This document shows, piece after piece, positions 32,996 through 36,358 of a stretch of DNA of 64,000 nt. The notes beneath the pieces are model-generated. The model saw nothing but the letters and a program-made list of their open reading frames with translations. It ran no database searches and had not been told where the DNA came from. This stretch comes from Escherichia phage FV3. How positions within the stretch are numbered: position 1 is the first letter of the stretch; each line of letters starts with the position of its first letter. The stretch is from the sequence record NC_019517.1; one strand, 5' to 3'. A program made the position numbers and the translations under genes.

Positions 32996-33280
32996 ATGAG
33001 CAATGGTATTAGCAACAATGCTGCAGAGTTTAAAGTGATCTGTAAAGGCACTTATTGGATAGTGAAACAGAAGGTGTACCTATTCGGTTTCATACCGTTT
33101 TGGCAGAGATTTTGCTGGGGAGCTAACGAGCTTAAGAGATACGCCACCAAGGCTATGGCACTTATTGGTATAGCTGAATACATTGCTGCCAGGGACAGAG
33201 AGGGGAAAACTTGTTACTACACTGCTGACGAGATTCGTAACAGTGTTTACGTTCCACAACCGCCCGATGGAGACCGCTGA
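32996..33280 (+). CDS. hypothetical protein (94 aa)
   Basis: track ORF. Confidence 0.4.
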   Translation: MSNGISNNAAEFKVICKGTYWIVKQKVYLFGFIPFWQRFCWGANELKRYATKAMALIGIAEYIAARDREGKTCYYTADEIRNSVYVPQPPDGDR

Positions 33281-33504
33281 TGAAAGTGAAAGTTTTAGAT
33301 TCAAACTTCTATATTGGTCAAGAGCCTTTAGTTGGAAAAGTGTTTACCGCTATCCCTAACGAAGATTATCCTGACCTTTTAAAAATAAAAGGGGAAGATC
33401 TTATTGCCGCTGGCGCGTCTCAGGAATGCTTTGACAGTCAGTGGGCCTACAACTTTGCCCTAGGGGAGGATGTGGAGATAGTGGAGGACGATTATGAAGG
33501 TTAA
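33280..33504 (+). CDS. small acidic protein, paralog family A
   Basis: MKVKVLDSN...GEDLIAAGA...VEIVEDDYEG; net charge about -11 in 74 aa. Confidence 0.5.
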   Translation: MKVKVLDSNFYIGQEPLVGKVFTAIPNEDYPDLLKIKGEDLIAAGASQECFDSQWAYNFALGEDVEIVEDDYEG

Positions 33505-33748
33505 AATTCTTGACTCTAACGTCTACTTGGGACAATCATTCCTGAAGGGAAAGGTAGTACCTGCTGTATACTTCGAAGGGTTGCCGTGGGATGATCCTGT
33601 GCGGCAAAATCACAGCTATGTAGGCCACAATGTGGTGTTCATTTTGGGATCAGACCTGATCGCGGCTGGTGCTCCGGAATATTATTTCGGAGAGGACTCG
33701 TATTATGCCTTTGGGGTAGGGTCAGATGCAGATATTTTAGAGCCGTGA
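33494..33748 (+). CDS. small acidic protein, paralog family A
   Basis: MKVKILDSN...GSDLIAAGA; adjacent tandem paralog. Confidence 0.5.
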   Translation: MKVKILDSNVYLGQSFLKGKVVPAVYFEGLPWDDPVRQNHSYVGHNVVFILGSDLIAAGAPEYYFGEDSYYAFGVGSDADILEP

Positions 33749-34159
33749 TTGGGGACTGTTGTGAAAAATAAACTGTTCAAAGTTACAATGAAAATTCGCG
33801 GAGCTTGGAGCGTAAAGCAAGGGCGTATCCCGGAATTTGAGAAAGACTTCTACGTAGTCTCCACCTCTGAAGAGGCTGCATGCTGGCAGGCTGGCTATGC
33901 CTATGCAAGAACTTGGTACGAAGGGTACCAAACTGGGGGCTATGACGGAGAAATTGTCAGTAAGGGTGTGGAAGAAATTAATGTGTTGACAAGTGAAAAA
34001 GTTTTTGTTATAGTGCATCCTGATTCCAGAGTGAAGCATTACTGGAATGCCAGAACAAAAACCTGGACACCATTTGCAGATTCTGCTACACCACTTTTAA
34101 ACCAGAAAGCTCTTGACTCTGCCCCGAGCTACGGGGTTGTTGAAGAAAAAATAAGCTGA
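33749..34159 (+). CDS. hypothetical protein, paralog family B
   Basis: shares VHPDSRVKHYWNARTKTWTP-like block with ORF 35963. Confidence 0.45.
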   Translation: MGTVVKNKLFKVTMKIRGAWSVKQGRIPEFEKDFYVVSTSEEAACWQAGYAYARTWYEGYQTGGYDGEIVSKGVEEINVLTSEKVFVIVHPDSRVKHYWNARTKTWTPFADSATPLLNQKALDSAPSYGVVEEKIS

Positions 34160-34176: not shown

Positions 34177-34467
34177 ATGATGGATTTAGTTTTGGATACT
34201 GATAACACCGAATCGTTTAAAAAAGATGGTGTAATAAGCATGGACCAATCCTGCCATGCCAAGATTGACTCAAAATGGACCTACAAGTTTGACGGTGAGA
34301 TCTTCGCAAATGATGAGAAGGTTGTGGATGCTGTAGCCATTTTAAACGCTTTAGGGTATGACCCTGTGAACTCATTGATCAAGGATCCTGTTGAGTTTGC
34401 AGAGTATGTTCGTAAAATGGCAGATCTTGCAGTAGATATTTTAAAAACTATCGACGACAAGCTGTAA
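34177..34467 (+). CDS. hypothetical protein (96 aa)
   Basis: track ORF. Confidence 0.4.
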   Translation: MMDLVLDTDNTESFKKDGVISMDQSCHAKIDSKWTYKFDGEIFANDEKVVDAVAILNALGYDPVNSLIKDPVEFAEYVRKMADLAVDILKTIDDKL

Positions 34468-34473
34468 AAACTG

Positions 34474-34502
34474 TTGACACAACATTTGATCTTTAGTATC
34501 AT
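34474..34502 (+). promoter_or_regulatory. sigma70-like promoter TTGACA-N17-TATCAT
   Basis: consensus hexamers upstream of the HPF homolog. Confidence 0.55.
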
Positions 34503-34549
34503 TATTTCCAAAGAGGGTTTGGTTCCCTCTTCTTTAAAAGGAGCACGTT

Positions 34550-34867
34550 ATGCAGATTGAAATTACTGGCAACGTAGAGATCACTGAAGGTATGGTGTCT
34601 TTCATTTCCCACAAAATGTCCAAACTGGAGCGTTTGCACCCATCTGCCAACTATGCACGTGTGAGTGTAAAAGTTGAAAATGATCACCAGGAAGTTATGG
34701 CTTTTATTTTTGACAATTCTGGGAAAGAAGTTATCGCCAAAGCTAAAGGTAGCGATGCTTACGAGGCAACTGACCGTATGGTGGATGTTGCAGCACGCCA
34801 GTTGGCTAAATGCGGTGGAAAGAAAGGTAAGGGAAAAGGTAAAGTAAAGATTGACTTTTGGGATTGA
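34550..34867 (+). CDS. hpf: ribosome hibernation promoting factor / RaiA-family homolog
   Basis: MQIEITGNVEIT...KLE...VKVE...AKAKGSDAYEATDRMVDVAARQLAK aligns block-by-block with E. coli HPF; Lys/Gly-rich tail. Confidence 0.8.
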   Translation: MQIEITGNVEITEGMVSFISHKMSKLERLHPSANYARVSVKVENDHQEVMAFIFDNSGKEVIAKAKGSDAYEATDRMVDVAARQLAKCGGKKGKGKGKVKIDFWD

Positions 34868-35004
34868 GGTGCTACAATGAGTATGATTAAGAAATTAGTC
34901 CCAAATGTAGAGATTGCATGCTTTGAAATTATGTTTGCAATCGCAGTTGTAGTTAATGTGTTAGGTTACGACTATTAATATCAAATAATTGAGGAGACCT
35001 CTAA

Positions 35005-35274
35005 ATGAAAATTAAATTATTCAAAACTGAGCTGGCAGACAAAAACTGCGGACTGGTTGAAGGCATGATCGTTGAAGCACAACCAGTGGACTACATGAAG
35101 GTGGTTCGTGATGCTCTGGGTGAAGGTTTTGATCTGATGGAGCCAGCTCTGCGAGAAGATGTCATCGAGATGGCTAAAAAGCACACACCTGAAGGCTTGG
35201 TAGTGTTTGTTGCTCCAGGTAACGGAGAAGAGTTGATTGTAACTCCGGATGTGTATGAGGTTGTAGAGGAGTAA
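35005..35274 (+). CDS. small acidic protein, paralog family A-like
   Basis: MKIKLF...YEVVEE. Confidence 0.45.
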   Translation: MKIKLFKTELADKNCGLVEGMIVEAQPVDYMKVVRDALGEGFDLMEPALREDVIEMAKKHTPEGLVVFVAPGNGEELIVTPDVYEVVEE

Positions 35275-35626: not shown

Positions 35627-35963
35627 GAATATGAAAGTACGCTTTATTGGTGAAACAATTCCTGTGCATCTCCGGTCGCCTGAGGATTCTGCAGATCTTG
35701 CATCTCAAAAGGCCAGAGGGTATGATAAGAAAGTAATCTCAACCGATGTAGAGCTTGAGGCTACCAGTCTGCCTGACCCTGCTGCATTCTTTAATCATTA
35801 TGGATACTATTTCAGCAATCTGATGAATATCGGTGAGCTTGTGTTTATTAGTGGTGGAGAAATAGTTAGCAAGCTTGGCGGCGATCCGGATGTCTTTCAT
35901 GAAACCTGCCCTTTTGCATTTGTGGTAGGTTCAGATGTGGAAGTTATTGAGGAGGTGCGGTAA
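35604..35963 (+). CDS. small acidic protein, paralog family A-like
   Basis: MKVRFIG...VEVIEEVR. Confidence 0.45.
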   Translation: MKLWLLGENMKVRFIGETIPVHLRSPEDSADLASQKARGYDKKVISTDVELEATSLPDPAAFFNHYGYYFSNLMNIGELVFISGGEIVSKLGGDPDVFHETCPFAFVVGSDVEVIEEVR

Positions 35964-36358
35964 TGGTAAGTCTATACCGTGTTGAGTATAGCTCAGATAC
36001 TGTATACAACGTAAGAAGCAAAGATCGTAGCGACAGAGTGCAAGAAATGTATGTTCTTGCCGACAGTCCGTTATCTGCAGCGTTTAAGGCAGGAGCTCTT
36101 GCATCTCGTTGGAAATTCGAGGGTGGATCTTTCTATGAAGAAACTCTTGAAGATTCTGTTGTTATTTCTTCTGTAGAGGTTTCAACTGACTACGAAGGGA
36201 AAAAGTTCGTAATGCGGCACCCACACAGCAACATTGCGTACTACTGGGATGTTCTGAACAACGAGTGGACTCCAGATCTTCAGAAGGCCACTGTTCTGAC
36301 TCCGTTCTTGGCAGATAAGTTCCCACCAGAAGGTAATTTATCTGCACTGTTTCAGTAA
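35963..36358 (+). CDS. hypothetical protein, paralog family B
   Basis: VMRHPHSNIAYYWDVLNNEWTP block shared with ORF 33749. Confidence 0.45.
   Translation: MVSLYRVEYSSDTVYNVRSKDRSDRVQEMYVLADSPLSAAFKAGALASRWKFEGGSFYEETLEDSVVISSVEVSTDYEGKKFVMRHPHSNIAYYWDVLNNEWTPDLQKATVLTPFLADKFPPEGNLSALFQ

What the first reader, a model, noticed from the sequence alone, without database searches (positions are those of the whole stretch)
34474..34867. Phage-encoded ribosome hibernation factor (HPF/RaiA) homolog with its own promoter
The 105-aa product aligns along its whole length with E. coli HPF (MQIEITGNVEIT vs MQLNITGNNVEIT, then KLE, VKVE, A.A.G.D.Y.A.D...RQL.K) and adds a Lys/Gly-rich tail. It has a consensus TTGACA-N17-TATCAT promoter and sits inside the acidic small-gene array. 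A phage copy of a ribosome-silencing factor suggests translational takeover or shutoff of host ribosomes. The N-terminus MQIEITGN also resembles the MKIEIT/MKVEITG starts of neighbouring paralogs, which may be coincidence.
Basis: partly seen in the sequence, partly recalled or inferred. Interest (0 to 1): 0.7.

Follow-up and report, generated by a model that had tools for sequence, protein, structure and literature searches.

The report
Known phage ribosome-hibernation-factor (HPF) gene
This is a real, well-conserved copy of the bacterial ribosome hibernation factor HPF carried by rV5-like E. coli phages, but it has been annotated since the rV5 genome record and was published and tested in 2019, so only its function during infection is still open.

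Summary
Window 34550..34867 (+) encodes a 105-aa protein that passes the Pfam S30AE/HPF model (48.3 bits against a cut-off of 23.7). [quoted passage not shown] A TTGACA-N17-TATCAT promoter lies in the 82-nt gap upstream and belongs to a strongly enriched early-promoter family.

The window comes from a Vequintavirus (rV5-like) coliphage, and 117 phage records carry the gene. In rV5 it is ORF144, "sigma 54 modulation factor", with promoter P144. Mizuno et al. 2019 (Nat Commun 10:752) described it as a viral HPF and expressed it in E. coli. They did not find it in ribosomes washed with 0.5 M NH4Cl and saw no change in 100S.

New here:
- Very strong purifying selection (dN/dS about 0.02).
- A second, 64%-identical syntenic lineage.
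- Loss of K80 (K in all 124 enterobacterial HPF/RaiA compared), T53, H55 and K89, with R83, K87 and K26 retained.
- A basic tail longer than that of HPF.

The most likely function is salt-labile binding at the 30S decoding channel of idle ribosomes. This is not proven. The resemblance to the N-termini of neighbouring genes is coincidence. Novelty: already known.

The parts
34469..34502 (+). Sigma-70-type early promoter: extended -35 AACTGTTGACA (TTGACA 34474-34479), 17-nt spacer, -10 TATCAT (34497-34502)
   Evidence: Scores 11/12 to consensus. Annotated as P144 in rV5. The -35 block AACTGTTGACACA is invariant in the 64%-divergent L004 lineage. The family TGTTGACA-N16-18-TANNNT occurs 12 times in the window against 0.19 expected. 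The transcription start has not been mapped.
34511..34531 (+). 7-bp hairpin (AAGAGGG / CCCTCTT, 7-nt loop) at the predicted 5' end of the mRNA, followed by CTTT
   Evidence: Predicted fold -11.3 kcal/mol but z = -0.34 against shuffles, so not significant by energy. Conserved in rV5 and absent from the L004 lineage, which lacks 26 nt here. Its role (5' stabiliser or weak terminator of the upstream genes) is not established.
34538..34543 (+). Shine-Dalgarno AAGGAG, 6 nt before the ATG
   Evidence: Read directly from the sequence.
34550..34816 (+). HPF/RaiA (S30AE) domain, codons 1-89
   Evidence: Pfam PF02482 covers residues 3-88. AF2 gives pLDDT above 89 over residues 1-80, with elements E2-7 H13-29 E33-42 E47-55 E60-67 H70-89. 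Foldseek: V. cholerae HPF 4hei TM 0.79/0.90, rmsd 1.0; E. coli HPF in the 100S ribosome 6h4n TM 0.79/0.87.
34817..34864 (+). Disordered basic Lys/Gly tail, codons 90-105 (GKKGKGKGKVKIDFWD)
   Evidence: pLDDT below 50 for residues 90-105. Residues 88-105 have net charge +4, against +2 for the E. coli HPF tail and -3 for the RaiA tail. The end K-[IW]-D-[FY] is shared with the divergent lineage (KWDY). Three of 117 records match only residues 1-88; the two of these that I read (Murica, APCEc02) have frameshifted tails.
34865..34867 (+). Stop codon TGA
34851..34878 (+). Promoter-like site (TTGACT-16-TACAAT, TG-extended) overlapping the 3' end of the gene, ahead of the 33-aa hydrophobic ORF 34878..34979
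   Evidence: A promoter is predicted at the same place in phage Gotham. Not tested.

Best explanation
The gene encodes a diverged short-HPF-type ribosome hibernation factor of a Vequintavirus (rV5-like) coliphage.

Shown: it is a full-length S30AE-domain protein with the predicted HPF fold. It is under very strong purifying selection, sits at a fixed syntenic position in two phage lineages, and is preceded by a consensus early-type sigma-70 promoter and a strong SD.

Inferred:
- Host RNA polymerase transcribes it immediately after infection.
- The protein binds vacant host 30S/70S ribosomes in the A/P-site channel of the 30S subunit. Binding would use the retained contacts (K25, R28, D75, R83, K87, K91), supplemented by its Lys-rich tail.
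- Binding is weaker and more salt-labile than for the host factors, because K80, K89, T53 and H55 are lost.
- The net effect is to hold idle ribosomes as protected, quickly re-usable 70S particles rather than as RMF-dependent 100S dimers. The tail is 10 residues longer than that of HPF. If it follows the path of the YfiA tail, it would reach the RMF site.
For: - Homology: Pfam 48.3 bits; TIGR00741 above cut-off, and the HPF model scores 55.8 bits against 17.6 for RaiA; 43% identity to E. coli HPF against 25% to RaiA.
[quoted passage not shown] The top 36 PDB matches are all HPF/YfiA/pY chains, many of them ribosome-bound.
- Retained contacts: R83 (the single arginine contacting m4C1402), K87, K91, K26 and D75, as listed in bioRxiv 10.1101/2025.10.07.680626 and mapped.
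- Selection: window against rV5 shows 19 synonymous and 2 non-synonymous differences, dN/dS 0.02, with none of the non-synonymous changes in codons 1-88.
- Ancestry: the 64%-identical ortholog sits in the same position in contigs L004-L007.
- Expression signals.
- The rV5 protein accumulates stably in E. coli, and its C-terminal peptide VKIDFGE was detected.
- Expression did not raise 100S, which fits a non-dimerising factor.
Against: - Mizuno et al. 2019 found no rV5 HPF peptides in purified 70S/100S. The ribosomes had been pelleted through 0.5 M NH4Cl and the cells were harvested at OD 1. From my own knowledge, host RMF/HPF/YfiA are also stripped by high-salt washes.
- K80 is replaced by V (T in the sister lineage), although it is K in 124/124 enterobacterial HPF+RaiA compared. 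T53 is F/R, H55 is F and K89 is G/S.
- By my own tally from the alignment, contact positions are no better conserved between the two phage lineages (about 9/16) than the protein as a whole (64%).
- The NCBIfam HPF equivalog cut-off is not reached (55.8 against 125).
- There are no infection-time expression data, and the path of the tail on the ribosome is pure analogy.
Confidence: 0.5

Rival explanations
1. Anti-hibernation competitor. The phage protein occupies the HPF/YfiA site, or blocks RMF with its basic tail, only loosely. Host RMF/HPF then cannot lock ribosomes into 100S dimers, so ribosomes of slow-growing or starving hosts stay available for phage mRNAs. Mizuno et al. proposed this.
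For: The proposal is (their section 9). Weakened canonical contacts together with a longer basic tail would suit a displaceable placeholder. Expression caused no rise in 100S.
Against: No decrease in 100S was reported either. An early sigma-70 promoter means expression in all infections, not only of starved cells. No binding has been shown at all.
Confidence: 0.2
2. Host-translation shutoff. High early expression floods free 30S/70S ribosomes and blocks initiation on host mRNAs.
For: Consensus promoter plus strong SD. HPF/YfiA-family proteins sit in the A/P sites and block tRNA and mRNA binding.
Against: A decoding-site blocker cannot by itself tell phage from host mRNAs. Arabinose-induced expression through growth to OD 1 was tolerated, with normal 70S profiles. 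Contact residues are weakened.
Confidence: 0.12
3. Exapted RNA-binding protein. The HPF fold has been kept, but the protein no longer targets the ribosomal decoding channel. Instead it binds another RNA or protein, for example phage mRNA, tRNA or a defence factor, using the Lys/Gly tail and the conserved K-[IW]-D-[FY] end.
For: Absent from purified ribosomes. K80, T53, H55 and K89 are lost in both phage lineages. Strong purifying selection shows that some function is maintained. The clade is isolated: the nearest cellular homologue is at most 45% identical in an exhaustive search.
Against: R83, K87, K26 and D75 and the whole fold are retained. A few cellular homologues also lack K80. No alternative partner is indicated by any result.
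Confidence: 0.15
4. Decaying hitch-hiker gene captured from a host, with no function.
For: None beyond the negative ribosome-binding result.
Against: dN/dS is about 0.02-0.06 across Vequintavirus. 114 of 117 records match at full or near-full length. The gene is conserved in synteny in a lineage whose synonymous sites are saturated.
Confidence: 0.02

Closest known systems
rV5 ORF144 (ABI79209), 'sigma 54 modulation factor' / viral HPF of Mizuno et al. 2019
   Same: The same gene. It is 98% identical in protein, differing only in the last two residues (FGE against FWD), with the same promoter (P144) and the same neighbours.
   Different: Nothing of substance. 19 synonymous differences.
E. coli short HPF (YhbH, 95 aa; PDB 2rql, 6h4n)
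   Same: 43% identity over 88 residues and the same fold (TM 0.76-0.87). The N-terminal MQ[IL]xITGN(N)VEITE, R83, K87, K91, K26 and D75 are shared.
   Different: K80V, K89G, T53F, H55F, D51M and M70A. The tail is 10 residues longer and more basic. The equivalog cut-off is not reached. Transcription is from a phage early promoter rather than the rpoN operon. 100S promotion was not seen.
E. coli RaiA / YfiA (pY, 113 aa)
   Same: Same domain and fold, and a C-terminal extension beyond helix alpha-2.
   Different: Only 25% identity, with the RaiA model at 17.6 bits against a cut-off of 158. The RaiA tail is acidic at its end (net -3), whereas the phage tail is basic (+4). GenBank records that call the phage protein 'RaiA' use the family name, not an orthology call.
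Long HPF of Firmicutes, Thermus and others
   Same: Homologous N-terminal S30AE domain.
   Different: There is no C-terminal dimerisation domain. The protein is 105 aa with a single Pfam hit.
Other virus-encoded translation proteins (Cronobacter phage GAP32 HPF, pelagiphage bS21, phage bL12)
   Same: The same class of 'viral ribosomal-protein' auxiliary genes catalogued in Mizuno et al. 2019.
   Different: The GAP32 protein is a separate, more divergent acquisition and was not found by tblastn at E 1e-3. bS21 and bL12 were shown to enter ribosomes, while the rV5 HPF was not.

Membership tests
HPF/RaiA family (Pfam PF02482 Ribosomal_S30AE; TIGR00741) | Sequence match to the family model above the curated cut-off | tested here: met
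   PF02482 48.3 bits against 23.7, residues 3-88 on profile 1-83/88. TIGR00741 45.9 against 40.9.
HPF/RaiA family (Pfam PF02482 Ribosomal_S30AE; TIGR00741) | [quoted passage not shown] | tested here: met
   The AF2 model has E2-7 H13-29 E33-42 E47-55 E60-67 H70-89, pLDDT 84.7. Foldseek gives TM 0.76-0.93 and rmsd 1.0-1.4 to V. cholerae and E. coli HPF. This is a prediction, not a solved structure.
HPF/RaiA family (Pfam PF02482 Ribosomal_S30AE; TIGR00741) | Basic track on helix alpha-2 (K80, R83, K87, K89, K91, K93) and the beta-sheet patch (T53, H/V62) that contact 16S rRNA | tested here: inconclusive
   R83, K87 and K91 are kept and I62 is acceptable. K80 is V (T in the sister lineage), K89 is G/S, position 93 is G and T53 is F/R. 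K80 is K in 124/124 enterobacterial HPF+RaiA compared.
HPF/RaiA family (Pfam PF02482 Ribosomal_S30AE; TIGR00741) | Binds the 30S subunit in the tRNA/mRNA channel of vacant ribosomes | not testable with these tools
   The published test was negative after a 0.5 M NH4Cl wash of ribosomes from cells at OD 1. No low-salt test exists.
Gammaproteobacterial short HPF (NCBIfam NF007780 equivalog) | Score above the equivalog cut-off | tested here: not met
   55.8 bits against a cut-off of 125. It is still the best-scoring subfamily model.
Gammaproteobacterial short HPF (NCBIfam NF007780 equivalog) | Converts RMF-induced 90S into 100S dimers | not testable with these tools
   The published profile shows no discernible effect on 100S. 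No RMF homologue is present in the window.
RaiA / YfiA (NCBIfam NF007654) | Score above the equivalog cut-off, and a long C-terminal tail with an acidic end | tested here: not met
   17.6 bits against 158. 25% identity. The tail is basic (+4), not acidic.
Long HPF | C-terminal dimerisation domain | tested here: not met
   The protein is 105 aa, Pfam finds only the N-terminal domain, and residues 90-105 are predicted to be disordered.
Sigma-70 early promoters of rV5-like phages | -35 and -10 hexamers with a 16-18 nt spacer, an intergenic position and conservation | tested here: met
   Scores 11/12 with a 17-nt spacer. The extended motif occurs 12 times against 0.19 expected. The -35 is invariant in the divergent lineage. 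Annotated as P144. Activity and the transcription start site were not tested.

The most novel reading that the evidence does not exclude
The phage protein is not a plain copy of HPF but a re-tuned one. Loss of the otherwise invariant K80, T53, H55 and K89 contacts, together with gain of a long Lys/Gly tail ending in a conserved K-[IW]-D-[FY] motif, would make it a weak, rapidly exchangeable occupant of the decoding channel. In that role it would act against the host. It could prevent RMF/HPF-driven 100S hibernation. It could also shield the decoding centre from ribosome-targeting abortive-infection toxins, while being easily displaced by phage mRNA initiation complexes.
Probability: 0.2. Interest if true: 0.6.

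Novelty: already known. Interest (0 to 1): 0.3.

Why it matters
Phage genes that touch the ribosome directly are rare. This one is fixed in a very common group of coliphages (117 records in the phage collection), some of which are used in phage-therapy and biocontrol collections. Its presence shows that the hibernation state of host ribosomes matters to a lytic phage. That bears on how phages infect the slow-growing or stationary bacteria that dominate in nature. The gene itself, its annotation and a first biochemical test are already in the literature. The open question is functional: does it bind ribosomes under physiological salt, and does it silence, protect or re-awaken them? The residue differences and the tail described here give concrete mutants to test.

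Tried and rejected
1. Paralogy between the HPF gene and neighbouring genes with MK[IV]x[IV] starts is rejected. BLASTP gives E 2.7 and 0.16 with no N-terminal alignment, the neighbours have no Pfam S30AE hit, and an all-against-all BLAST links neighbours to each other but never to HPF.
2. The second 'sigma 54 modulation factor' in some GenBank records (window 35005..35274) is rejected as a propagated misannotation.
3. The 5'-UTR hairpin as a significant RNA element is not supported: z = -0.34, absent from the sister lineage, and no Rfam hit in the window.
4. A companion RMF gene was not found in the window. There are no tRNAs either.
5. Recent capture from the host is rejected. An exhaustive phmmer search of 1.84 billion representatives gives only 22 hits at E <= 1e-3. 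The nearest outside the rV5 cluster (itself represented at 50% identity by P0004) is the sister phage lineage at 65%, and cellular proteins are at most 45% identical.
6. A scan of IMG/VR for further phage lineages returned only two near-identical contigs.
7. Literature searches for any later functional work on phage HPF found only Mizuno 2019 and a citing survey. The TayeBlu phage 'hibernation factor' is a Balon homologue, which is a different family.
8. Polikanov 2012 could not be read, so statements about the YfiA tail and RMF rest and on my own knowledge.

Full report
**1. What is in the sequence**

Window 34550..34867 (+) is an ATG-initiated ORF of 105 codons. An AAGGAG Shine-Dalgarno sequence (34538-34543) lies 6 nt before the ATG. 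In the 82-nt gap after the upstream gene (which ends at 34467) lies TTGACA (34474-34479), a 17-nt spacer and TATCAT (34497-34502). This scores 11 of 12 against the sigma-70 consensus.

**2. Is it an HPF homologue?**

Yes, by sequence and by predicted fold.

- Pfam PF02482 (Ribosomal_S30AE) scores 48.3 bits, E 1.8e-12, against a gathering score of 23.7, and covers residues 3-88.
- NCBIfam TIGR00741 (HPF/YfiA family) scores 45.9 against 40.9.
- The enterobacterial HPF equivalog is the best subfamily model at 55.8 bits but is below its cut-off of 125. The RaiA model scores only 17.6.
- The best solved relative is E. coli HPF (2rql, E 5.5e-12).
- BLASTP gives 43% identity over 88 residues to E. 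coli K-12 HPF (E 5e-18) and 25% to RaiA.
- An AlphaFold2 model built on 66 aligned sequences has mean pLDDT 84.7 and the topology beta1(2-7)-alpha1(13-29)-beta2(33-42)-beta3(47-55)-beta4(60-67)-alpha2(70-89). Residues 90-105 are disordered.
- Foldseek against the PDB returns only HPF/YfiA/pY chains in its top 36. V. cholerae HPF gives TM 0.79/0.90 at rmsd 1.0 Å, and E. coli HPF from the 100S ribosome (6h4n) gives TM 0.79/0.87.

**3. Where the window comes from, and what is already known**

The 2.5 kb around the gene is 93-98.5% identical to 117 phage records. Almost all are Escherichia phages of the genus Vequintavirus (rV5-like myoviruses of about 137 kb). tblastn finds the protein in 117 phage records at 94-100% identity.

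In the rV5 record (DQ832317) the gene is ORF 144, [quoted passage not shown]. The promoter is annotated as "Sigma70-type promoter; P144". Other records call it hpf, ribosome hibernation factor or RaiA.

Mizuno et al. 2019 (Nat Commun 10:752, PMC6375957) list rV5 ABI79209 and its relatives as virus-encoded HPF. They placed them among gammaproteobacterial sequences in their phylogeny. They proposed that viral HPF might compete with the cellular factor and prevent ribosome dimerisation.

They also expressed the rV5 gene from pBAD24 in E. coli NM522. Peptides, including the C-terminal VKIDFGE, were found in crude extract but none in purified 70S or 100S. 100S abundance did not change. Their ribosomes came from cells harvested at OD600 = 1 and were pelleted through 0.5 M NH4Cl. 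The authors themselves list growth phase and salt stripping as possible reasons.

A later coliphage survey repeats the annotation. I found no later functional study. Both the observation and its interpretation are therefore already in the public record.

**4. What I could add**

(a) Selection.
- Between the window and rV5 the gene has 19 synonymous and 2 non-synonymous differences (dS 0.36, dN 0.008, dN/dS 0.02). Both replacements fall in the last two codons.
- Other pairs give dN/dS of 0.03-0.06.
- The gene is clearly maintained by selection.

(b) A second lineage.
- An exhaustive phmmer search of 1.84 billion representative proteins finds only 22 hits at E <= 1e-3.
- The nearest outside the rV5 cluster itself is a 103-aa protein (P0004), 64-65% identical. 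All cellular homologues are at most 45% identical.
- P0004 lies on uncultured rV5-like contigs of about 125-137 kb, at the same position in the same gene order. Neighbouring genes are 28-84% identical between the two lineages.
- The gene therefore predates the split of these lineages and is not a recent capture.

(c) Ribosome-contact residues.
- A cryo-EM comparison of HPF- and YfiA-bound ribosomes (bioRxiv 10.1101/2025.10.07.680626) names the conserved contacts. K80, R83, K87 and K91 are identical in HPF and YfiA and all touch the ribosome.
- The same study lists K89 and K93; T53 and H/V62, which contact m2G966; H55 and E60, which contact the uS9 C-terminus; and K26, Q29 and D75.
- I compared these positions in an alignment of 48 enterobacterial HPFs, 76 RaiAs and 13 diverse homologues.
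- The phage protein keeps K26 (its K25), D75, R83, K87 and K91, and has R for Q29.
- It has V for K80 (T in the sister lineage; K in 124/124 enterobacterial sequences), G/S for K89, F/R for T53, F for H55 and M/S for D51.
- A few diverse cellular homologues also lack K80.
- The canonical interface is therefore only partly retained.

(d) The tail.
- Residues 88-105 (CGGKKGKGKGKVKIDFWD) have net charge +4 and are 10 residues longer than the E. coli HPF tail (+2). The RaiA tail is longer still but acidic (-3).
- The sister lineage has a different basic tail that ends KWDY, so a K-[IW]-D-[FY] terminus is shared.
- Three of the 117 records match only residues 1-88. The two of these that I read, Murica and APCEc02, have frameshifts in the GGGGAAAGG run that give shorter tails. 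I cannot tell whether these are real or sequencing errors.

(e) The promoter.
- The block AACTGTTGACACA is invariant between the window, rV5 and the divergent lineage, while the surrounding DNA has diverged.
- The extended motif TGTTGACA-N16-18-TANNNT occurs 12 times in the window against 0.19 expected.
- P144 is therefore one member of a real family of early-type promoters. Its activity and start site remain untested.

**5. Mechanism**

Shown:
- A selected, HPF-fold protein with strong host-type expression signals in the early small-gene region.
- A protein product that is stable in E. coli.

Inferred:
- Immediate-early expression.
- Binding to vacant 30S/70S ribosomes in the A/P-site channel, through R83, K87, K91 and K25 plus the Lys-rich tail.
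- Affinity lower than that of the host factors.

I consider the most likely outcome to be a YfiA-like, non-dimerising parking or protection of idle ribosomes (confidence about 0.5). Three points support this:
- The tail is long enough, by analogy with YfiA, to run towards the RMF site. This rests and on my own knowledge of Polikanov et al. 2012.
- 100S did not increase on expression.
- The phage carries no RMF in this window.

The rivals are:
- A true anti-hibernation competitor (0.2).
- An exapted RNA-binding protein that no longer uses the ribosome (0.15).
This is weakened because the protein was tolerated through growth to OD 1 with normal 70S profiles, and because a decoding-site blocker cannot tell host from phage mRNA.
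- A functionless hitch-hiker, which one search excludes.

**6. Side claims**

The similarity of MQIEITGN to the MKIEIT/MKVEITG starts of neighbouring genes is coincidence. BLASTP finds nothing at the N-termini. The neighbours have no S30AE signal. All-against-all BLAST links some neighbours to each other but none to HPF.

The label "sigma 54 modulation factor" on the next-but-one gene (window 35005..35274) in several GenBank records is a misannotation. In APCEc02 the label sits on that gene while the real HPF gene is called hypothetical.

The 7-bp hairpin at 34511-34531 would sit at the predicted 5' end of the transcript, but it is not energetically distinctive (z = -0.34). It is missing from the sister lineage, where the same GAGGG serves directly as the SD.

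**7. Verdict**

The identification is correct but already known: it is annotated in the rV5 record and was published and tested in 2019. The functional interpretation remains open, and the single experiment leans weakly against stable ribosome binding. Interest is modest (0.3). The useful residue is a set of concrete, testable differences from host HPF.

Noticed in passing
window 35005..35274 (+): This 89-aa acidic protein is labelled 'sigma 54 modulation factor' in several GenBank vequintavirus records, for example PQ014731 and MN850630. In KR698074 the label is on this gene and the real HPF gene is 'hypothetical'. It has no S30AE similarity, so this looks like a propagated off-by-one misannotation. 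Other records call the HPF gene 'ATP-dependent protease La' (MT884008-11, OR062525/30).
   Followed up: yes
window 33280..33748, 35631..35963; 33788..34159 and 35963..36358: The small acidic genes around HPF include true paralogs. 33280 and 33494 match at E 6e-15, and both match 35631 at E 6e-4. The two genes of about 125 aa (33788, 35963) are also paralogs at E 1.5e-7. The rV5 ortholog of the 33788 gene (ORF 142) is annotated as similar to a Listeria phage A118 hypothetical protein. None has a Pfam match, and their functions are unknown.
   Followed up: partly
window-wide, e.g. 25206, 26597, 26876, 33984, 34472, 39656 (+); 1658, 44919, 48416, 50938 (-): The extended early-promoter motif TGTTGACA-N16-18-TANNNT occurs 12 times against 0.19 expected by chance. 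AANTGTTGACA with at most 1 mismatch occurs 15 times against 2.1 expected. The strand of the motif changes along the window.
   Followed up: partly
window 34503..34549 compared with L004 3960..4000: There is a 26-nt indel in the HPF 5' UTR between the window/rV5 lineage and the sister lineage. The extra DNA pairs with the ancestral GAGGG Shine-Dalgarno to form a 7-bp hairpin and brings a new AAGGAG Shine-Dalgarno.
   Followed up: partly
window 34878..34979 (+): A 33-aa hydrophobic ORF (MSMIKKLVPNVEIACFEIMFAIAVVVNVLGYDY) lies directly after HPF, with a promoter-like site (34851-34878) overlapping the HPF stop. It is annotated in rV5 as ORF145 and has no counterpart in the sister lineage L004.
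   Followed up: no
phage records MG065644-MG065684: Eighteen records named 'Campylobacter phage' with host C. jejuni are about 95% identical to this coliphage region and carry the same HPF gene. This is surprising for the stated host and suggests mislabelling or carry-over of coliphages.
   Followed up: no
protein P0006: A 1160-aa metagenomic protein has eight partial matches to residues 35-81 of the phage HPF (E 3e-9). It may be a tandem array of S30AE-like beta-sheet segments.
   Followed up: no
L010 (Murica) and L012 (APCEc02), tail codons: Single-base length changes in the GGGGAAAGG run of the Lys/Gly-tail coding DNA give truncated or altered tails (…GKGKAK*, …GKGERQSKD*). The V18/Murica group also has NN at residues 8-9, as in E. 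coli HPF, where the window has a single N.
   Followed up: partly
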